Below, piece after piece: positions 35,538 to 48,272 of a DNA stretch of 64,000 nt. Numbering within the stretch: position 1 is the first letter of the stretch; each line of letters begins with the position of its first letter. The position numbers were made by a program, and so were the translations under genes. The stretch comes from an uncultured Clostridia bacterium (GTDB taxonomy: Bacteria; Bacillota; Clostridia; TANB77; CAG-508). The stretch covers positions 59,217-123,216 of the forward strand of contig CAKOVK010000001.1 of NCBI GenBank assembly GCA_934121925.1, in the 5' to 3' direction. The notes under the pieces were generated by a model. That model did not search any database and was not told where the DNA came from. It saw only the letters and a program-made list of their open reading frames with translations.

Positions 35538-36002
35538 ATGAAACCAATAAACACTCAAAAAGAATACCAAGAATATGTCGATAAAAAATCACCAAATTCT
35601 CCCATATGGAAAAATTGTTTAAATAGCTTTTGGATTGGCGGTCTCATTTGTAGTATTGGGCAAATCATAATGGAAATATGCAAATACAGAGGTTTAGACA
35701 CAGAAATAAGTGCAACAATAACATCAATAATTTTAATATTTTTAAGCGCTTTTCTTACAGCCCTTAACTTATTTAATAAAATTGGAAAATTTGCTGGAGC
35801 AGGTTCGCTTGTTCCTATTACAGGTTTTGCAAATTCTATAGTATCACCTGCTATGGAATATAAATCAGAAGGATATGTTATGGGTGTAGGTGCAAAAATG
35901 TTTACAGTTGCTGGTCCCGTACTAGTTTACGGAATTTCTTCTTCTATATTGGTCGGAATTATTTATTTAATTTTTAACACGCAATCTATAACACTAGTAT
36001 AA
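35538..36002 (+). CDS. spoVAC: Stage V sporulation protein AC.
   Basis: ...WIGGLICSIGQIIMEI...FAGAGSLVPITGFANSIVSPAMEYKSEGYVMGVGAKMF is highly conserved SpoVAC. Confidence 0.85.
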   Translation: MKPINTQKEYQEYVDKKSPNSPIWKNCLNSFWIGGLICSIGQIIMEICKYRGLDTEISATITSIILIFLSAFLTALNLFNKIGKFAGAGSLVPITGFANSIVSPAMEYKSEGYVMGVGAKMFTVAGPVLVYGISSSILVGIIYLIFNTQSITLV

Positions 36003-36025
36003 ATAAATTTTATTAAATTAAACAA

Positions 36026-36140
36026 CTTGTAATTTGTTTGGTTTCGGGTGAATTCAGGACAGTCCCCAAAATCCCCAGGTTTGGTGATTTTGAATGACAG
36101 TCCCTAGAATTCCCCCCCTCACACAAATTACAATTTATCT
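36026..36140. mobile_element. MITE-like element (~115 bp) with 11-bp terminal inverted repeats TTGTAATTTGT / ACAAATTACAA, inserted between spoVAC and spoVAD.
   Basis: The internal 90 bp is about 97% identical, in inverted orientation, to 45809-45898. No ORF. Confidence 0.6.
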
Positions 36141-36160
36141 TATTATTTTGGAGGTTTAAT

Positions 36161-37165
36161 ATGAAAAAAATAGGTAGTCAATCTGTAAGATTTGATAATC
36201 CAATAACAATTTTAGAAACTGCTTCTATAGTAGGTCCAAAAGAAGCAGAAGGCCCCATGGCTAAATATTTTGATAAATGTTTGGAAGATGAATTTTGGGG
36301 AGAAAAAACTTGGGAAAAAGCGGAGAGCAAAATAATTAAAGAAACTGTAAATTCTAGTATAATTAAATCTAAAATTCCTGCTAATATGATAGATTACTGC
36401 TTTGCCGGAGATCTTCTAAACCAATGTATATCTTCAAGTTTTGGTTTAAGAGAGCTTGGTATTCCATTTTTTGGGATCTTTGGAGCATGTTCTACCTTTG
36501 TTGAAGCATTAAGTTTAGCATCTGTTTTTATAGATGGTGGCGCTGCCAAAAGTGCAATAGCTACAGCTTCTAGTCACTTTTGTAGTGCAGAAAAACAATT
36601 CAGGTTTCCCTTAGAACTTGGCAATCAAAGGCCTCCTTCATCTCAATGGACAGTTACGGGTGCAGGTTCTGCAATACTTTCCAAGGAAGGTACTGGGCCT
36701 TATATAACAAACATTACAACAGGTAAAATAGTAGATATGGGAATTAAAGATGCTAATAATATGGGGGCTGCTATGGCACCAGCCTTTGTAGATACATTGA
36801 TTACTCATTTTAAGGACACTGGTCGAAACCCAAGTTACTACGATGGAATTTTTTCTGGGGATTTAGGACACATTGGTAAAGAAATATCAATAGAACTCTG
36901 TCAAAGTGAAGGATACAATATAAAAAGCAACTACAATGACTGTGGTGTAATGATTTTTGATAAAGCAACCCAGGATACCCACTCTGGTGGTTCTGGTTGC
37001 GCATGTTGTGCAAGTATTTTTTCTGGTTATCTGTTTAATCAATTAAAGCAAAAAAAGCTAAAGAAAATTCTCTTAGTAGCAACAGGTGCTTTAACTAATG
37101 CGACTTCTTCGCAACAGGGAGAATCAATTCCTGGAATTGCACATGCAATTTCTATAGAAATTTAA
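36161..37165 (+). CDS. spoVAD: Stage V sporulation protein AD.
   Basis: Thiolase/KAS-like fold; ...FGIFGACSTFVEALSLAS... is typical SpoVAD. Confidence 0.85.
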   Translation: MKKIGSQSVRFDNPITILETASIVGPKEAEGPMAKYFDKCLEDEFWGEKTWEKAESKIIKETVNSSIIKSKIPANMIDYCFAGDLLNQCISSSFGLRELGIPFFGIFGACSTFVEALSLASVFIDGGAAKSAIATASSHFCSAEKQFRFPLELGNQRPPSSQWTVTGAGSAILSKEGTGPYITNITTGKIVDMGIKDANNMGAAMAPAFVDTLITHFKDTGRNPSYYDGIFSGDLGHIGKEISIELCQSEGYNIKSNYNDCGVMIFDKATQDTHSGGSGCACCASIFSGYLFNQLKQKKLKKILLVATGALTNATSSQQGESIPGIAHAISIEI

Positions 37166-37199
37166 ATGAATTGTAATTTACAGAAAGGATATAATTATT

Positions 37200-37589
37200 A
37201 TGGAAGATTTTTTTAATAACTTTAATTGGATTATGCTAGCAAAAGCATTCATTGTTGGTGGTTTAATATGTATTGTTGGTCAAATTTTGATAGACAAAAC
37301 TAAATTGACTCCCGCAAGGATCCTTGTTATATTTGTAACAACTGGTGCTATTCTAGGTGGACTTGGAATATATCAGCACTTAGTCGATTTTGCTGGCGCT
37401 GGTGCCACTGTTCCACTAACTGGTTTTGGTAATTTGCTAGCAAAAGGAGCTATACAAAAGACTAAAGAGATCGGCTTAGTTGGCGCATTTACCGGCGGAA
37501 CAGCTGCTGCCGCAGGTGGAATTGCTGCTGCTGTATTTTTCGGGTATATAGCTTCATTAATTTCAAAGCCGAAAATGAAAAAGCAATAA
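37200..37589 (+). CDS. spoVAEb: Stage V sporulation protein AEb.
   Basis: ...IVGGLICIVGQILID...FAGAGATVPLTGFGNLLAKGA... is SpoVAC/SpoVAEb-family. Confidence 0.8.
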   Translation: MEDFFNNFNWIMLAKAFIVGGLICIVGQILIDKTKLTPARILVIFVTTGAILGGLGIYQHLVDFAGAGATVPLTGFGNLLAKGAIQKTKEIGLVGAFTGGTAAAAGGIAAAVFFGYIASLISKPKMKKQ

Positions 37590-37791
37590 GAAAGGCATTT
37601 TGCTAAGTATCCCTTCGAAGAAAGTGCAAAATACATTCCACTCGCTTTGCTCGAGCAGAGCTAAAGAAGCCTAACCTTGTTGTATACGCAAAAATCTTCG
37701 ATTTTTCCTATACAATAACAAAATTAAAAGCTAAGAAATAAAAAACAAAGGACGACCTAAGTCGCTTTGTTCTTTATTTCCTAGCTTTCTT

Positions 37792-38905
37792 CTAAATAGC
37801 TTTTCTTATTACTCTATTTGAAATTGTACACAATATTTCATAATTTATTGTTTTGCATTCTTTCGCAATGTCATCTACAGTAATTGTTTTATTGTCCCAA
37901 ATATATACTTCATCTCCTATATTCACATCTTCTATTTCTGTAACATCTGCCATAAAGCTGTCCATACATATTGTACCAACTATAGGCGCCTTTTTTCCAT
38001 TTATTACTACACTTCCATTATTACTCATTGCTCTTTTTATTCCATCTGCATATCCTATTGGAATGTTTGCAATTTTTGTTTTTTTAGATGTCACATATGT
38101 TCTTCCATATCCTATAGGAGTACCTTTTTCCACTTCTTTCATAAAAGAAATTTTAGTTTTTAATGTGCATACTGGTTTTATTTTTATTTTATCCTTTAAT
38201 TTTAAATCTGGATAATATCCATATAGCATTATTCCTGGTCTAACCATATTTCCCGGATAATTATCAATGTTAAGTATTGCACCACTGTTTGCACAATGCA
38301 CATATTTTATTGTGTCAAAGTTCTGTTTTACTATATCAACTGCTTTTTTAAATTTATTTATCTGTTCTTGTGTGTATTCTATATTTGTATCACTTTCTGC
38401 AAAATGAGTATATACTCCTTCTACAATAACGTTATTCATTTGCTTGATTTTTTCTATAAAATGTTCGAGATTTTTCTCTTGTACTCCCGTTCTTCCCATT
38501 CCACTTTCTATTTCAATGTGGATTTTTGCCTCAAGTCCTTTTTCCTTAGCTTTTTTATCTAATTCAGAAACAAATTCATCATAGCAAGTCCCTACTGTTA
38601 TGCCATATTTTATTATATTATCTATATCTTCAACAAGTGGTTGATTAATCACTATAATTTCTCCGTTTGTAGTCCAATCCTGCTCTTAACACAATCGCTT
38701 CATCTACTAAAGCTGTTCCTATTCTTTCTATTGGAACTTTGTCTAAAAATTTTTTTACATTTTTTGCTCCAATTCCATACCCGCTCGCTTTTAATATAGG
38801 TAGTATTTCCTTATCTCCTATTTTTCTTTTAATTTGATTATAATTATAAACCATTGAATCTATATCTATAAGTAACTCTGTTTGTCTGTTTCTTTCATAT
38901 TCCAT
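37792..38905 (-). CDS. alr: Alanine racemase. The frame is interrupted at an in-frame CGG (plus-strand ccg 38663-38665).
   Basis: N-terminal piece ...LKASGYGIGAKNV...VDEAIVLRAGLDYK|RRNYSD* continues in +1 as GEIIVINQPLVEDIDNIIKYGITVGTCYDEF... The PLP Lys context is conserved. Confidence 0.8.
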
Positions 38906-42058: not shown

Positions 42059-42277
42059 AATCTCATCTCCTTAACTACTATATATATCACAAAAAAACGA
42101 AAAAAGCATTATAGTCGTTAAAAATTATTGGCATTTCACCCATTATAATTCATAAAATGATAGCCAAATCTATATGCTTTAAAATTTAGAAAATAAAATT
42201 ATCTAGATTTTTATATTAGGTCAATTCTTGTTTTTTTATGTAGACTATGTTATAATTTTGGTGTCAAGGAGGCTTCT

Positions 42278-44710
42278 ATGAATTTTGATGAAATATTAAA
42301 CCTATCAAAAGATAATCCAAGTAAATTTGTAAAAAATTTTGGTTACTATTTAATGATTGTAAGCAGAAAAGACTTACCCAGGCTAATTGAAATAGCAATG
42401 AGCATTAATAACCCCATTATTAATAAAAAAATTTTCAATGAAATTCCATTCCTTTTAAATAAAGTAAAAATTGGAGAATTAGGAAATTTATTATCAGTTC
42501 TTTTTTATAATCCAATGTACTATGAAAAAATAGTTTCTATGTTTGACTATCTTTCGACTTTTTTTGCGCCTAATAATATTGAACAGGTTATTTCTGCTTT
42601 TTTAAGAGTAAACCCTAATTCAAAGATAATAGCTAACAATTATGAAACTTTCTTAGAAAATGCTAAAACAAAGCCTCAAGCAATGCAAATTATTCAAAGT
42701 ACATCTCATATTAGCAAGTGTAAAAATATAATAGACACATACAATTCTACAATTTTGGAGTTAAATGATTATCCATTTTTAGCAGATTTGAATATTGGTA
42801 CTATGCTAAAACTAATCAATTATGGCTGCTTAGATGAAATTAAAAATATTTTTAACTCGTACTCAAACGGCAATTTAAAAAATGTAAAATTCTTGTCTAA
42901 TGGATTTACTAGTACAGTTTTTATTGCAGGAGATAAAGTTATCAAAATAGGAAAAAAGAGAGTTAAATTTGATTCGTTTTTTTCTAAATATTTATTGCAA
43001 CCTTATTACAGAAAAGAATTAAAAGATTTCAATGATAATGTTATTGCGACGATTGAAATTCAAGATGTTTGCTTAAATATTGGATTAGATCCTAAGAAAG
43101 TAACAGATTTTATGGATGAAGTTAATTCTGAAGAAGATTTCGTTTGGGCAGATTGTAATCCAAGTAATGTTTTTTTACTATTAAAAGACAATAATAGAAA
43201 AATTGCACCTAATGAAGATGGCTTCTCTTATTCTGGAGTAAAATCTACAGTTCCTACTGGTAAAAAAGGAGACCTTGTTATAGGAGATACAGATTTTATT
43301 TTTTCTAAAAATGATTTTATCGAAAGAGAAAACTCATACTATACTCCACCTCATAATACTACTTTCTCTTTTATACTTCCTACATACAATATGGAAAAAT
43401 ATTTATCTAACTGCTTAAATAGCATTTTAAATCAAACTTGTGATGACTTTGAGGTCCTTATAATAGATGATGGCTCTACAGATGCTAGTAAAGAAATTGC
43501 AACACGATATGCAAAAATTGATAAAAGGATTAAAGTTTTATCATTTGAAAATGGTGGATTAAGTGTTGCAAGAAATAGAGGTATTAAAGCTGCTTCTGGA
43601 GATTACATTTTATTAGTTGACCCAGATGACACAATAGAACCTGAACTTTTAGAAAAATTGCTTCCTTACGTAAAAAATGGAGTAGAAACAATTCGTTTCG
43701 GTGCACTAGTTCAAGATGATAGTCCTCAAAAGGATAAATACAGATTTAATAGGCCTTACTACCCTGAAGTTACTTCTGGTATTGAAGCTTTAAAAAAATG
43801 GGATGCCGATAAGAGATATGCTACTGCTTGGCTATATTGTATTAATAGAAATGTATACGAAAGATCTAACTTTGAATTTCCAAAAGTAAAAATATATGAA
43901 GATGTAGCATCTATCCCAAAACTTATAGCAAGTTCTAATACTGTTGCATTGCTTGATTATATTGGTTACAATTACATCCAACATGATGATACTATAACAA
44001 ATGGTAAAACTCCAGAGAAACAATTATCAAACTTATCTGGCTTTATTAATGCATATGATGTAATTATGAATACTATGAATAACTTTTTTAAAGGAAAGGC
44101 TCATTTAGAATCATCTAGAGCTTCTATATTAAATGGTTTTTTTAATAGGCTTGAAGATAAATTTCAGCATACAAATTTAATTGAAAAGGATACTTTTGCT
44201 CATCAACTATTGGACAGACATAAAAGATTTAAAATAAATTATAACGATGAATATTTTTATTATAATTTTGCTAAAAATGCCCATAATCAAATTACAAAAT
44301 TTTATCCTAGTAGAGATAAAAGACGTTTAAAATATAAAAACACAACTATAATGCAATTAGGGTCGTATGATTATTGTATTGATGATCAACATAATTCTAT
44401 ATCGCTTTATAGAATTGAAAAAGAGGGGCAATTTAATTATACAGATTCATTTCTATCTTTTTCAAATATTGATTTTGACAAATTAAAATCCAGTGAGTCC
44501 TATAGAGAAGTAGTATTTGAAAAGTTACTTTCATATACAAATCTATTGCTTGCTGAAGCCATTAATGGTAGCTACATTGGAGATGTACGTGAAAACTCAA
44601 ATACAAATTCTATGGACATAGAATTTGATCCTTATAATACTATATTTGCTAGAAATACAAGGGCAGTAACTCCTAGACTTCCAGAAAAAACAGAAGCAAA
44701 AGAATTATAA
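42278..44710 (+). CDS. 810-aa multidomain protein: N-terminal protein-kinase-like/CotS-like fold, central GT2 (GT-A) glycosyltransferase, and a C-terminal ~200-aa domain of unknown function.
   Basis: Kinase-like motifs: Gly-rich loop FLSNGFTSTVFIAGDKVIKIGKK, catalytic WADCNPSNVFLL, and DFG-like VIGDTDFIF. GT2: ...FSFILPTYNMEKYLSNCLNSILNQTCDDFEVLIIDDGSTD...ILLVDPDD... Promoter TATAAT and RBS AGGAGG are present upstream. Confidence 0.7.
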   Translation: MNFDEILNLSKDNPSKFVKNFGYYLMIVSRKDLPRLIEIAMSINNPIINKKIFNEIPFLLNKVKIGELGNLLSVLFYNPMYYEKIVSMFDYLSTFFAPNNIEQVISAFLRVNPNSKIIANNYETFLENAKTKPQAMQIIQSTSHISKCKNIIDTYNSTILELNDYPFLADLNIGTMLKLINYGCLDEIKNIFNSYSNGNLKNVKFLSNGFTSTVFIAGDKVIKIGKKRVKFDSFFSKYLLQPYYRKELKDFNDNVIATIEIQDVCLNIGLDPKKVTDFMDEVNSEEDFVWADCNPSNVFLLLKDNNRKIAPNEDGFSYSGVKSTVPTGKKGDLVIGDTDFIFSKNDFIERENSYYTPPHNTTFSFILPTYNMEKYLSNCLNSILNQTCDDFEVLIIDDGSTDASKEIATRYAKIDKRIKVLSFENGGLSVARNRGIKAASGDYILLVDPDDTIEPELLEKLLPYVKNGVETIRFGALVQDDSPQKDKYRFNRPYYPEVTSGIEALKKWDADKRYATAWLYCINRNVYERSNFEFPKVKIYEDVASIPKLIASSNTVALLDYIGYNYIQHDDTITNGKTPEKQLSNLSGFINAYDVIMNTMNNFFKGKAHLESSRASILNGFFNRLEDKFQHTNLIEKDTFAHQLLDRHKRFKINYNDEYFYYNFAKNAHNQITKFYPSRDKRRLKYKNTTIMQLGSYDYCIDDQHNSISLYRIEKEGQFNYTDSFLSFSNIDFDKLKSSESYREVVFEKLLSYTNLLLAEAINGSYIGDVRENSNTNSMDIEFDPYNTIFARNTRAVTPRLPEKTEAKEL

Positions 44711-44858
44711 TCAAAAGTTAAGCTTTAATGAAATGTACCAGAAAATTCAATTAAAACTTAGAATTCTATGGTACATTTTTAATATATAAAAAATTTCAGT
44801 TTTCCTATACAATAAGAAAAGCAAGCCAATCCATATTAATGGTCTGGCTTGCTGTAGG

Positions 44859-45098
44859 TTACCTGTTGTGTTCCAGATTACAATAAAATGCATGAATCTT
44901 TGGAAGAACATCCAGCATTTCAGCTATATCTTCTTCTGACATTCCAGCATTTTTCATAACCCGATTAATATCTTTAATCATTTCTTGTCCTGCCTTAAAG
45001 ATATAAGAAGGTGCTAGTCTGCTCGGAACAAAATTCATTAAATTATTATGAAACTCTTCATGAAGTCTGATGCACTCTAAAAGCACTTCTCCACTCAC
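44859..45098 (-). CDS. Hypothetical small protein.
   Basis: 79-aa ORF with a downstream terminator hairpin (44816-44858). It contains an in-frame CGG at plus-strand 44962-44964, read here as Arg. Confidence 0.35.
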   Translation of the reverse strand: MSGEVLLECIRLHEEFHNNLMNFVPSRLAPSYIFKAGQEMIKDINRVMKNAGMSEEDIAEMLDVLPKIHAFYCNLEHNR

Positions 45099-46732: not shown

Positions 46733-48272
46733 TTATACCGCTATTTCCCTTTTTACAAACTTAGGAATATATAACTGTTGGCCTGGATAAATTTTATTAA
46801 CATCTTCTATTTCGTTTACTCTAGCAATATCATCTACTGTACTCTTAAATTTCTTTGCTATTTTCCAAAGAGTGTCTCCTGGTTTTACAAAATATATTAC
46901 CATACTATATATATTATTTTCTCTATTTTCTTCTACATTTATTTCATCTATTATATTTAAACTCTCATTTCTACTAACACTAATATTAAACTCTAATTCA
47001 ATATTTGCATTTACACTTCCTGAATTTACAACAAAATCGTCTCTCTTTATATCTATATTAGTATTAGCACTGCAATTCTCATTTATATCATCTGAATTAA
47101 CTTCAAAATTAAATGGTATCTGAGCTGTTCTAGAATTTACTCCGTTAGTCACTTCATAAATAAACTCTAAATTTATTTCTCCTTCATACATTATCCTTCC
47201 ATTTCTTATTGTAACATTTTGTATTGTAGGATTTGTTTTAACATTATATAATTGATTATTATCTATTTCCGGAATTGAAACTTGTTCATTTATATTACAT
47301 ATATCTTTTATATTTTTCTTTCCTACCATTGTTGTTATTTTCTTTTGAGTAAAACTTAAATCTGTTGATATACTATATAAATCTTCTATTAAATTTATGT
47401 TTTTTGCTTCATAAGCAAAACATGTTATTTCAATTTCAATTTCTACATATATTGAATGTTCATCTCCGCTGTTAGGTTTTATAATAATGTTTTTAGTTTT
47501 ATAGTCAACATCACATTCATTATTATCACCAATATTTTCTATATCCACAAATCCCATAACAGGAATTCTTGCACTAGTATTTTTTATTCTATTATCTTCT
47601 GTCAAATACATTATCGAAATTTCCGCATCTGCTTTTGCAAGTACTTTGTTATAGCTCAATTTTATATCTTTATCTAAAATTTTTATATCTACTCCCATTA
47701 TTTCTGCTAAATCATCTGTAGAATCTATGCTTATAGTGTCTTTTGCATATACCTTTGTATTTCCTTCTCCTATTAAAGAATTCACCGTTTTTTGAGTGTT
47801 TAACATTTGTATGTCATCTGCATTGTTGACACCGCATACTATCTGCATATTATCGTTTGAATAAACCTTTGCTTCTACTTCTAATGTTGCTTTTATATTT
47901 ATTTTTCTACCATTTAAAATTTTAGTTTCTATTTTTTTAATATTAACTTTCTCATTTACTGTCATTTGTGACATACAATTTTCAATATCTATAATTCCGG
48001 CTAAAATCTAAGACTGTGTTTAAACTTCTTACTGTACTATCTTCACTGTCGGCCATATATATAACGTATGTATTAATACTTCCATCAAGCCTTATCTTTC
48101 CATCCATTACTTCTTTTTTATATACACATGGTATTCCACTTGTACTAACTATACTTAATACATCTGGTTTAATATCGTTTACTATAACATCTCCTTCTAC
48201 TATAATTTCATCTTTCTTTTGTCCAACTATTTGGTTTATGCATACATTCTCTTTTTCTGTTTCTAGTAGCAT
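46733..48272 (-). CDS. SpoVID-like spore-coat morphogenetic protein (DUF3794/SPOCS repeats plus C-terminal LysM). The frame is interrupted at an in-frame CGG (plus-strand ccg 47997-47999).
   Basis: N-terminal 96-aa ORF ...RSLNTVLDFS|RNYRY* continues in +1 as GIIDIENCMSQMTVNEKVNIKKIETKILNGRKINIKATLEVEAKV... C-terminal LysM: YFVKPGDTLWKIAKKFKSTVDDIARVN. Confidence 0.65.

What the first reader, a model, noticed from the sequence alone, without database searches (positions are those of the whole stretch)
42278..44710. 810-aa fusion of a protein-kinase-like domain and a GT2 glycosyltransferase, recalling spore-coat CotS/CotSA
Residues ~180-360 carry kinase-like motifs: a Gly-rich loop SNGFTSTVF, the Lys in VIKIG, a catalytic-loop-like DCNPSNVF and the DFG-like GDTDF. 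Residues ~365-600 are a canonical GT-A/GT2 domain with the DDGSTD and DPDD motifs. A further ~200-aa C-terminal domain has no recognisable family.

In Bacillus the CotS-family kinase-like protein and the CotSA glycosyltransferase are separate spore-coat proteins encoded together. A single polypeptide combining both activities, in a sporulation-rich neighbourhood, suggests a coat or exosporium glycosylation enzyme with an unusual architecture. It is a stand-alone transcription unit with its own TATAAT promoter and flanking terminators.
Basis: partly seen in the sequence, partly recalled or inferred. Interest (0 to 1): 0.55.

Follow-up and report, generated by a model that had tools for sequence, protein, structure and literature searches.

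The report
Minimal kinase-like domain fused to glycosyltransferase
An uncultured gut Clostridia bacterium encodes an 810-residue soluble protein that joins a previously uncatalogued, stripped-down protein-kinase-like domain to an ordinary family-2 glycosyltransferase; the fusion is real and unusual, but nothing ties it to the Bacillus spore-coat proteins CotS/CotSA.

Summary
The ORF (42278..44710, +, 810 aa) and all the cited motifs are real.

**Domain layout**
- Residues 1-195: all-helical domain.
- Residues 196-358: minimal protein-kinase-like (PKL) domain.
- Residues 359-591: canonical GT-A/GT2.
- Residues 592-670: helical linker.
- Residues 671-810: lineage-specific alpha/beta domain.

**Evidence for the kinase reading**
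- K223, E260, D292 and N297 are invariant in 148 of 148 relatives that are at most 50% identical to each other. D337 and D339 are nearly invariant.
- The AlphaFold2 model of the core has pLDDT 95.9.
- All 50 best PDB matches are protein kinases (ERK2, NleH2, PknB). The named matches among the top 50 in a viral structure library are also almost all protein kinases.
- No Pfam, NCBIfam, PHROG, PADLOC or PDB sequence model detects the domain.
- Helix plus PKL is a stand-alone module in about 540 unannotated protein clusters from gut Bacillota. The intact fusion to GT2 is confined to one narrow clade.

**Evidence against the CotS/CotSA analogy**
- There is no APH/CotS match.
- The transferase is GT2, not GT4.
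- The conserved promoter is sigmaA-type (TTGnnn-N17-TGnTATAAT).
- The link to sporulation genes is positional only, and the gene's orientation flips between relatives.

**Best reading:** a cytoplasmic bifunctional phosphotransferase/glycosyltransferase acting on one glycoconjugate. The substrate is unknown.

The parts
42228..42256 (+). SigmaA-type promoter: -35 TTGTTT (42228-42233), 17-nt spacer, extended -10 TG (42248-42249) plus TATAAT (42251-42256)
   Evidence: Sequence read. The -35 TTGnnn, the 17-nt spacing and TGnTAT(A/T)AT are conserved in four orthologous loci at ~55% protein identity. The consensus scan did not list it because the -35 is weak in this species.
42266..42272 (+). Ribosome-binding site AAGGAGG
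   Evidence: GGAGG is invariant in the orthologue alignment.
42278..44710 (+). Whole CDS, 810 aa plus stop codon
   Evidence: The identical protein P0001 was read on 21 metagenome contigs.
42278..42862 (+). Residues 1-195: all-alpha domain (16 helices), part of the conserved 'helical + kinase-like' module
   Evidence: AF2 pLDDT is 92-97. Profile matches to stand-alone relatives often extend over query residues ~50-350. No Pfam, NCBIfam or PDB match.
42863..43351 (+). Residues 196-358: minimal protein-kinase-like domain. It carries the Gly-loop G209, the beta3 Lys K223, E260, the catalytic loop D292-x4-N297, N305, and the metal-binding D337-x-D339
   Evidence: Conservation. AF2 model with pLDDT 95.9 and pTM 0.88. 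In Foldseek the top 50 PDB hits are all protein kinases, and viral kinases are hit as well. Sub-threshold CaMK1G, CASK and CK2 alignments are in the correct register.
43352..44050 (+). Residues 359-591: GT-A fold family-2 glycosyltransferase, with DDGSTD 397-402, DPDD 448-451 and YED 540-542
   Evidence: PF00535 at E=4e-37. NCBIfam PRK10073, TuaG and EpsD match below their cut-offs. PDB sequence matches 5hea, 2z87 and 3bcv. Foldseek matches RmlT, TarS, CgT and TarP. The motif residues are invariant in the family.
44051..44287 (+). Residues 592-670: helical linker following the GT-A core
   Evidence: AF2 secondary structure, with pLDDT only 42-60. Foldseek alignments to TarS and RmlT extend beyond the GT-A core but with large rmsd.
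44288..44707 (+). Residues 671-810: lineage-specific alpha/beta domain of unknown fold family
   Evidence: AF2 pLDDT is 69-88 for residues ~671-790, with a beta-sheet plus helices. No PDB match. It is found only in this family among 5.8 billion proteins. No Pfam or NCBIfam match.
44730..44786 (+). Terminator-like hairpin followed by a short U-run
   Evidence: RNA fold -16.1 kcal/mol, z=-3.4 against shuffles. It is AT-rich and so was missed by the strict scan.

Best explanation
This is a soluble cytoplasmic enzyme with two catalytic centres, transcribed on its own from a housekeeping (sigmaA-type) promoter.

The N-terminal half (residues 1-358) is a member of a previously uncurated family: a helical domain followed by a minimal protein-kinase-like (PKL) domain. 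That domain keeps the ATP-binding and phosphotransfer residues:
- the Gly-rich loop (G209);
- the beta3 Lys (K223);
- the catalytic Asp-x4-Asn (D292, N297);
- the metal-binding Asp pair (D337, D339).

It lacks the activation segment and the C-lobe helices, as the NleH/OspG effector kinases do.

The middle part (residues 359-591) is an intact GT-A/GT2 transferase that uses a nucleotide sugar (the family is inverting), with its DxD motif. The C-terminal alpha/beta domain probably binds the acceptor or mediates oligomerisation, as the C-terminal domains of TarS and RmlT do.

**Shown:** the architecture, the kinase-like fold, the conservation of the catalytic residues, the GT2 identity, the lack of transmembrane segments, and the promoter type.

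**Inferred:** that the two active sites act one after the other on the same acceptor. That acceptor would be a cell-envelope glycopolymer or a glycoprotein. Either phosphorylation creates or marks the site that is glycosylated, or the added sugar is itself phosphorylated, as POMK and Fam20B do in eukaryotes. The identity of the substrate is not known.
For: **Architecture and solubility**
- Five segments are laid out by the predicted secondary structure.
- The highest 19-residue hydropathy is 1.13, so no transmembrane helix is expected.

**PKL domain**
- Among 148 relatives, conservation is K223 148, E260 148, D292 148, N297 148, D337 147, R245 146, G209 145, N305 145 and D339 145.
- The D-x4-N spacing has no gaps in those 148 relatives.
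- A profile search of PDB sequences puts the Gly-loop on CaMK1G 'LGSGAFSEV' and the catalytic loop on 'GIVHRDLKPENLL'.
- The AF2 core model has pLDDT 95.9 and pTM 0.88.
- The Foldseek PDB top 50 are all protein kinases, with probability up to 0.99. They include the minimal kinase NleH2 (4o96, 4lrk).
- In the BFVD viral library the named hits among the top 50 are almost all kinases from phages and giant viruses, with probability up to 1.00.
- Only ~20 residues follow D339 before the GT2 domain starts. [quoted passage not shown]

**GT2 domain**
-.
- D398, D448, D450 and D451 are invariant, and E541 and D542 nearly so.

**Coupling of kinase and transferase**
- The whole length is conserved at 53-60% identity across the clade.
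- An unrelated GT2-APH fusion (P0060) shows that kinase-GT2 fusions arise independently.
- Glycan kinases with the kinase fold are established (POMK PMC5142810, Fam20B PMC5865150).

**Expression**
- The sigmaA-type promoter is conserved.
Against: - No sequence model of any kinase family detects the domain, even weakly, in 106 members. The PDB profile matches are not significant (E = 0.3-6).
- Foldseek E-values are modest (2e-3 to 2e-2) and query-normalised TM-scores are 0.33-0.45.
- No alphaC helix is predicted between beta3 and beta4. The canonical Lys-Glu ion pair is therefore not demonstrated, and the role of the invariant E260, P242 and R245 is unexplained.
- Two orthologues carry insertions between D292 and N297: 18 aa in P0014 and 1 aa in P0007.
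- The closest sister proteins (P0122, P0123, P0125) keep the kinase-like module but have only a degenerate GT2 stub. The module therefore does not need an active transferase.
- Nothing here identifies a substrate. Gene context is uninformative.
- The GT2 region 475-575 is poorly modelled.
Confidence: 0.6

Rival explanations
1. The protein is a spore-coat or exosporium glycosylation enzyme that combines CotS-like and CotSA-like activities. It would be made in the mother cell during sporulation and would act on coat or exosporium proteins.
For: - The host encodes a full set of sporulation genes, and the gene always lies between rplM-rpsI and the yunB-sipL-veg-yabG-spoIIID block.
- GT-A glycosyltransferases such as SpsA and CgeD take part in Bacillus spore crust glycan synthesis (PMC10502511).
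- SpsA is a weak PDB sequence match at E=7e-6.
- One stand-alone relative lies near cotJB/cotJC.
Against: - There is no match to APH/PF01636 or to the NCBIfam CotS-type models.
- The transferase is GT2, not the GT4 of CotSA (the CotSA family assignment is from my own knowledge).
- The conserved promoter is sigmaA-type with an extended -10.
- The gene's orientation relative to the sporulation block flips between relatives, so it is not co-transcribed with that block.
- Relatives of the kinase-like module are scattered with no conserved neighbours, in MAGs labelled Bacilli, Erysipelotrichaceae and Tenericutes.
- Much better GT2 matches than SpsA exist: CgT, the K4 chondroitin polymerase, TarS and RmlT.
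Confidence: 0.12
2. The kinase-like domain is not a catalyst. It would be a nucleotide-binding regulatory or scaffolding domain (a pseudokinase) that controls or targets the GT2 domain.
For: - No alphaC helix and no activation segment are predicted.
- Insertions in the catalytic loop are tolerated in P0014 and P0007.
- No kinase HMM matches.
- Minimal kinases such as OspG need a partner protein for activity (abstract of PMC11078946).
Against: The residues needed for phosphotransfer (K223, D292, N297, D337) are invariant in 147-148 of 148 relatives, which span less than 30% identity to the query. Pseudokinases typically lose one or more of these residues (general knowledge).
Confidence: 0.13
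3. The kinase-fold domain carries out chemistry other than phosphorylation. Candidates are AMPylation or another NMPylation (as in SelO or the nidovirus NiRAN domain) or glutamylation (as in SidJ). The target would be a protein or a glycan.
For: - The best BFVD hit is a nidovirus replicase polyprotein.
- The invariant residues E260, P242, R245 and N305 are not part of the canonical kinase motif set.
- There is no alphaC Glu.
Against: - The overall motif set and the D-x4-N spacing are canonical for phosphotransfer.
- Nearly all structural neighbours are conventional Ser/Thr kinases.
Confidence: 0.08
4. The kinase-like appearance is spurious, and residues 196-358 are an unrelated alpha/beta domain.
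For: All sequence-based searches fail, and the TM-scores are below 0.5.
Against: - Fifty of the 50 top PDB hits are kinases, and the named top hits in an independent viral library are almost all kinases too.
- The invariant residues fall exactly on the kinase catalytic positions and in the right order.
Confidence: 0.03

Closest known systems
NleH1/NleH2 and OspG, minimal Ser/Thr kinase effectors of EPEC/EHEC and Shigella (PDB 4o96, 4lrk)
   Same: Both are kinase domains of ~160-170 residues with a Gly-loop, a beta3 Lys, a catalytic D-x4-N and a metal-binding Asp, and both lack subdomains VIII-XI. NleH2 is the 2nd and 3rd best PDB structural match (PMC12756638).
   Different: - There is no detectable sequence similarity.
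- Here there is no alphaC helix, and the family has its own invariant residues (E260, P242, R245, N305).
- This is a cytoplasmic protein of a Gram-positive gut commensal, fused to a helical domain and a GT2. It is not a secreted type III effector.
Eukaryotic-type Ser/Thr protein kinases (Pkinase PF00069; for example ERK2, p38, PknB)
   Same: They share the fold of the N-lobe and the catalytic core, and the order and spacing of the catalytic motifs.
   Different: The PF00069 HMM does not match. The C-lobe and activation loop are absent. TM-scores are only 0.33-0.45.
CotS / CotSA of Bacillus subtilis
   Same: The pairing of a kinase-fold protein with a glycosyltransferase, in a spore-forming Firmicute.
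   Different: - CotS belongs to the APH/choline-kinase branch (PF01636), which does not match here.
- CotSA is a GT4/GT-B enzyme (my own knowledge), whereas this one is GT2/GT-A.
- The two Bacillus proteins are separate.
- The promoter here is sigmaA-type.
GT2 transferases with C-terminal accessory domains: TarS (5tz8), RmlT (8bz4-8), TarP (6h1j) and CgT/GalT1 of dGT1 (5hea)
   Same: These are the best sequence and structure matches of residues 362-591. They are soluble GT-A enzymes in which helices and a further C-terminal domain follow the catalytic core, and they glycosylate wall teichoic acid or a protein-linked glycan.
   Different: - Identity is 17-28%.
- The match is below the NCBIfam equivalog cut-offs.
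- None of them carries a kinase-like domain.
- The C-terminal domain here has no detectable relative.
Glycan kinases with a kinase fold: POMK, Fam20B (and, from my own knowledge, bacterial WaaP and KdkA)
   Same: They are kinase-fold enzymes that phosphorylate a sugar inside a growing glycan and so gate the next glycosyltransferase step (PMC5142810, PMC5865150). This functional logic would explain a kinase-GT fusion.
   Different: There is no sequence or specific structural relationship. The substrate here is unknown, and those enzymes are not fused to the transferase.

Membership tests
Protein kinase-like (PKL) superfamily | Kinase fold (five-stranded N-lobe sheet, hinge, catalytic-loop strands) | tested here: met
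   The AF2 core model has pLDDT 95.9. The top 50 PDB hits in Foldseek are all kinases, with probability up to 0.99, and the named BFVD top hits are almost all kinases. TM-scores are modest (0.33-0.45).
Protein kinase-like (PKL) superfamily | Gly-rich loop and beta3 Lys for ATP phosphate binding | tested here: met
   G209 is conserved in 145 of 148 relatives and K223 in 148 of 148. The loop aligns to the CaMK1G Gly-loop.
Protein kinase-like (PKL) superfamily | Catalytic loop Asp-x4-Asn and downstream metal-binding Asp (the DFG equivalent) | tested here: met
   D292 and N297 are conserved in 148 of 148 relatives with no gaps between them. D337 is conserved in 147 and D339 in 145. Two close orthologues have insertions in the loop.
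Protein kinase-like (PKL) superfamily | AlphaC helix Glu that pairs with the beta3 Lys | tested here: inconclusive
   No helix is predicted between beta3 and beta4. The invariant E260 on beta5 might substitute, but the model coordinates could not be inspected.
Protein kinase-like (PKL) superfamily | Significant match to a curated kinase sequence model | tested here: not met
   No kinase family was found in Pfam or NCBIfam for the query or for 106 relatives. PDB profile hits have E = 0.3-6.
Protein kinase-like (PKL) superfamily | ATP-dependent phosphotransfer activity | not testable with these tools
   This needs biochemistry.
CotS family (APH-type spore coat kinase-like proteins) | Match to PF01636 (APH) or the NCBIfam CotS-type models | tested here: not met
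   No match at E up to 1 in Pfam or up to 10 in NCBIfam.
CotS family (APH-type spore coat kinase-like proteins) | Sporulation-specific (sigmaK) expression and coat localisation | tested here: inconclusive
   The conserved promoter looks sigmaA-type. There are no expression data.
CotSA (GT4 spore coat glycosyltransferase) | GT-B fold, Glycos_transf_1 (PF00534) | tested here: not met
   Only GT2/GT-A families match.
Glycosyltransferase family 2 (PF00535, GT-A) | HMM score above the gathering threshold | tested here: met
   128.1 bits against a cut-off of 23.3.
Glycosyltransferase family 2 (PF00535, GT-A) | DxD metal/nucleotide-sugar motif and upstream Asp-rich motif | tested here: met
   DPDD 448-451 and DDGSTD 397-402. 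D398, D448, D450 and D451 are invariant in the family.
Glycosyltransferase family 2 (PF00535, GT-A) | GT-A fold | tested here: met
   Foldseek matches RmlT, TarS, CgT and 3bcv at E = 1e-9 to 1e-7. Residues 475-575 are poorly modelled.
NleH/OspG minimal effector kinases | Kinase core ending shortly after the metal-binding Asp (no subdomains VIII-XI) | tested here: met
   About 20 residues separate D339 from the start of the GT2 domain. NleH2 is among the top 3 structural hits.
NleH/OspG minimal effector kinases | Sequence homology and a secreted-effector context | tested here: not met
   There is no sequence match. The protein is a cytoplasmic protein of a Gram-positive bacterium, encoded next to housekeeping genes.
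TarS/RmlT-type teichoic-acid glycosyltransferases | GT-A core plus a C-terminal oligomerisation or acceptor domain of the same fold | tested here: inconclusive
   Foldseek alignments run over 390-509 columns but with rmsd of 13-17 A.

The most novel reading that the evidence does not exclude
The helical + minimal-kinase module defines a new, catalytically active family of the kinase superfamily that is widespread in uncultured gut Bacillota. In this fusion it acts as a glycan or glycoprotein kinase mechanistically coupled to the adjoining GT2. That would make it a bacterial, single-polypeptide counterpart of the POMK/Fam20B 'phosphorylate the glycan to gate the next transferase' logic.
Probability: 0.3. 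Interest if true: 0.7.

Novelty: new variant of a known kind. Interest (0 to 1): 0.5.

Why it matters
About 540 protein clusters (at 50% identity) from gut Bacillota carry a kinase-fold domain that no public family database recognises. The phosphosignalling or phospho-glycan repertoire of these largely uncultured gut bacteria is therefore under-annotated.

The fusion to a GT2 gives a concrete experimental handle, because the two activities on one polypeptide presumably share a substrate. Defining that substrate could reveal a new phosphorylated cell-envelope glycan, or a phospho-dependent protein glycosylation step, in Clostridia.

The result also corrects a tempting but unsupported annotation (CotS/CotSA-like spore-coat enzyme).

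Tried and rejected
- **P0060 as homology support.** This protein has GT2 plus precomputed APH Pfam hits, but its APH domain is C-terminal (residues 673-881). The BLAST extension into our N-terminal region is noise.
- **Sequence-profile detection of the N-terminal 358 residues.** Nothing was found in PDB, Pfam, NCBIfam, PHROGs or PADLOC.
- **Fold search with the full-length model.** It returned only GT2 hits, so the core was re-predicted on its own.
- **GTDB genome scan with the N-terminal alignment.** It found no relatives of the fusion clade. A 9-sequence core alignment then found 31 loci with stand-alone relatives.
- **Conserved-neighbour analysis of those 31 loci.** No neighbour is shared by more than 4 loci.
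- **Phage origin.** A tblastn search of a stand-alone relative against 50,697 phage records found no match.
- **Source names.** None, apart from 'hypothetical protein'.
- **C-terminal domain.** No relatives outside the family.
- **Sporulation-type promoter.** Only the sigmaA-like elements are conserved. Comparison by eye with the yabG and sipL upstream regions was too ambiguous to use.
- **Literature search for kinase-GT fusions in spore formers.** Nothing relevant was found.
Full report
**Observation.** The ORF at 42278..44710 (+) exists and encodes 810 aa. A good RBS, AAGGAGG, lies 5 nt upstream of the ATG. The protein has no hydrophobic stretch long enough for a membrane helix (maximum 19-residue Kyte-Doolittle mean 1.13), so it is predicted to be soluble.

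**The glycosyltransferase.**
- Pfam finds only GT2 families: PF00535 at E=4e-37 over residues 364-488.
- NCBIfam gives sub-cut-off matches to PRK10073, TuaG, EpsD and others over residues 360-591.
- PDB sequences give CgT/GalT1 5hea (E=5.5e-28, residues 362-585), the K4 chondroitin polymerase, 3bcv, TarS, RmlT and TarP. SpsA matches only weakly, at 7e-6.
- The full-length AlphaFold2 model (mean pLDDT 77.6) matches the same enzymes structurally: RmlT, TarS, CgT and TarP at E = 1e-9 to 1e-7.
- D398, D448, D450 and D451 are invariant, and Y540, E541 and D542 nearly invariant, in the family alignment.
- The GT2 domain is therefore ordinary and looks catalytically intact.

**The family.** About 19 clusters of metagenome proteins (P0001-P0019, 53-100% identity) share the whole 810-aa architecture. 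The next-best hits share only the GT2 domain. P0060 carries precomputed APH and fructosamine-kinase hits, but its kinase domain is C-terminal (residues 673-881) and does not align with our N-terminal region. It is an independent kinase-GT2 fusion, not a homologue of this one.

**The N-terminal half.**
- No Pfam, NCBIfam, PHROG, PADLOC or PDB sequence model matches residues 1-360.
- A profile of residues 1-358 was searched against 1.84 billion representative proteins. It found 539 proteins at E<=1e-3 and 234 at E<=1e-10.
- Most of these are stand-alone proteins of 250-450 aa. In many of them the match extends over query residues ~50-350; the shared core is residues ~196-350.
- The unit is therefore 'helical domain + beta-rich core'.
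- These relatives are unannotated. They have no Pfam family, and the only source name is 'hypothetical protein'.
- They occur in MAGs of gut Bacillota labelled Bacilli, Erysipelotrichaceae, Clostridia, Clostridium sp. CAG:417 and Tenericutes.
- They share no conserved neighbour, and none was found in phage genomes.

**Is it kinase-like?** Four independent lines of evidence agree.
1. *Conservation.* Among 148 relatives that are at most 50% identical to each other, the invariant or nearly invariant positions are G209 (145), K223 (148), G225 (144), R228 (137), P242 (144), R245 (146), E260 (148), D292 (148), N297 (148), L301 (146), N305 (145), G331 (135), D337 (147) and D339 (145). These include, in order and with canonical spacing, a Gly-rich loop, the beta3 lysine, a catalytic Asp-x4-Asn and a downstream metal-binding Asp.
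2. *Profile search.* A profile of the core aligned against PDB sequences gives only non-significant hits (E = 0.3-6). The protein hits that fall on the core are all protein kinases (CaMK1G, CASK, CK2alpha), and they align the Gly-loop to 'LGSGAFSEV' and the catalytic loop to 'GIVHRDLKPENLL'.
3. *Predicted structure against PDB.* With a 106-sequence alignment the core folds with pLDDT 95.9 and pTM 0.88 into beta1-beta5, a helix, four short strands and a terminal helix. Its 50 best Foldseek matches in the PDB are all protein kinases (ERK2, NleH2, PknB, GSK3, p38, JNK). Probabilities are 0.75-0.99, E-values 2e-3 to 2e-2 and query TM-scores 0.33-0.45.
4. *Predicted structure against viral models.* The independent BFVD library returns kinases from phages, giant viruses and poxviruses at E down to 1e-4.

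Only ~20 residues separate D339 from the first GT2 strand. [quoted passage not shown]

Caveats:
- No alphaC helix is predicted, so the Lys-Glu pair is unproven.
- E260, P242, R245 and N305 are family-specific invariant residues of unknown role.
- P0014 and P0007 have insertions inside the catalytic loop.
- No kinase HMM reaches even E=1 in 106 members.

**Other domains.** Residues 1-195 are sixteen helices modelled at pLDDT 92-97. Residues 592-670 are helical with low confidence. Residues 671-~797 form a beta-sheet plus helices at pLDDT 69-88. This C-terminal part has no relative outside the family in 5.8 billion proteins and none in the PDB.

**Context and expression.**
- The organism is an uncultured gut Clostridia bacterium. 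Its housekeeping proteins occur on MAG contigs of up to 292 kb, and the nearest source name is 'Clostridia bacterium'.
- The gene lies between rplM-rpsI (plus a divergent nitroreductase gene) and rubrerythrin-yunB-sipL-veg-yabG-spoIIID.
- This position is kept in relatives at ~55% identity. However, the gene points the same way as rplM-rpsI here and in L007, and the opposite way in L005 and L008. It is therefore not part of a conserved operon.
- An alignment of four orthologous upstream regions shows a conserved -35 TTGnnn, a 17-nt spacer, an extended -10 TGnTAT(A/T)AT and GGAGG. Here these are TTGTTT at 42228-42233 and TG-T-TATAAT at 42248-42256.
- In L005, L007 and L008 a GC-rich inverted repeat followed by a T-run (a terminator-like hairpin of the preceding gene) lies upstream of the promoter.
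- This is the signature of a housekeeping sigmaA promoter. No sigmaE-, sigmaK-, sigmaF- or sigmaG-like element is conserved.
- Downstream there is an AT-rich hairpin (-16.1 kcal/mol, z=-3.4) followed by a short U-run.
- The 'stand-alone unit with a TATAAT promoter' is confirmed. The inference of sporulation-specific expression is not.

**Mechanism.** I conclude with fair confidence that the protein is bifunctional: a minimal kinase-fold phosphotransferase and a GT2 transferase on one soluble polypeptide. That both act on the same acceptor is inferred from three things:
- the conservation of the fusion over the whole length at 53-60% identity;
- the independent origin of another kinase-GT2 fusion (P0060);
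- the precedent of kinase-fold enzymes that phosphorylate sugars in a growing glycan, namely POMK (PMC5142810) and Fam20B (PMC5865150).

The nearest GT2 relatives act on wall teichoic acid or on protein-linked O-glycans (TarS, RmlT, TarP, CgT). A cell-envelope glycopolymer or a surface glycoprotein is therefore the most plausible acceptor. Whether the kinase substrate is a protein Ser/Thr, as for its nearest structural neighbours, or a sugar hydroxyl cannot be decided here. Sister proteins keep the module with only a GT2 stub (P0122, P0123) or carry an added HAD domain (P0125). This shows that the module can work without an active transferase.

**Comparison with known systems.**
- The protein works like a kinase-plus-transferase pair, but it is not a member of the CotS (APH) or CotSA (GT4) families. 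Both membership tests were run and failed.
- It belongs to GT2 by every test.
- Its kinase-like domain belongs to the PKL superfamily by fold and by catalytic motifs, but to no curated family.
- Its closest structural analogues in terms of 'minimalism' are NleH and OspG, with which it shares neither sequence similarity nor biological setting.

**Novelty and verdict.** The kinase fold, GT2 and multi-domain GTs are all well known. What is new is an unrecognised, widespread minimal kinase-like family in gut Bacillota and its fusion to a GT2 in one narrow Clostridia clade. I rate it a new variant of a known kind, with interest 0.5.

Noticed in passing
window 37792-38905 (minus strand): The alanine racemase gene is split by a 1-nt frameshift into an 86-aa ORF and a 286-aa ORF that overlap at ~38645-38652. 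The junction sequence is identical in three independent metagenome assemblies (L001, L002, L004). It is therefore a real feature of this species, either a pseudogene or a programmed frameshift.
   Followed up: partly
window 46733-48272 (minus strand): sipL, the clostridial coat morphogenetic protein, is split into a 96-aa ORF (47982..48272) and a 413-aa ORF (46733..47974) in different frames. It is also called as two ORFs in L001-L003, but it is a single 512-aa ORF in the relatives L005 and L008. Two damaged sporulation-associated genes in one neighbourhood could mean that sporulation is decaying in this lineage.
   Followed up: partly
protein P0060 (metagenome, 963 aa): This is an independent kinase-GT2 fusion with the domains in the opposite order: GT2 at residues 167-285 and an APH/fructosamine-kinase-like domain at 673-881. 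It is not homologous to the kinase-like domain studied here.
   Followed up: partly
proteins P0122, P0123, P0125 (closest sister clusters): P0122 and P0123 keep the helical + kinase-like module but end in a degenerate GT2 stub that lacks the DxD motif. P0125 adds an N-terminal HAD phosphatase-like domain.
   Followed up: partly
L005, L007, L008 versus the window: The gene keeps its position between rpsI and the sipL block, but it is inverted relative to the flanks in L005, L008 and L009 compared with the window and L007.
   Followed up: yes
window 1-64000: Rfam at gathering thresholds finds nothing in the whole 64 kb. There are no tRNAs or riboswitches, and no L20 or L13 leader upstream of infC or rplM.
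   Followed up: no
window 36001-38000: G+C rises locally to 0.349, against ~0.27 elsewhere.
   Followed up: no
window 44859-45098 (minus strand): A 79-aa ORF convergent with the GT gene has no Pfam family. It is also called in the near-identical same-species contigs L001-L003 (cut at the locus end in L004), and it has its own GC-rich terminator hairpin at ~44818-44856.
   Followed up: no
proteins P0014 and P0007 (orthologues): P0014 has an 18-aa insertion and P0007 a 1-aa insertion between the putative catalytic Asp (D292) and Asn (N297). Both are single-contig assemblies, so these may be real variants or artefacts.
   Followed up: no
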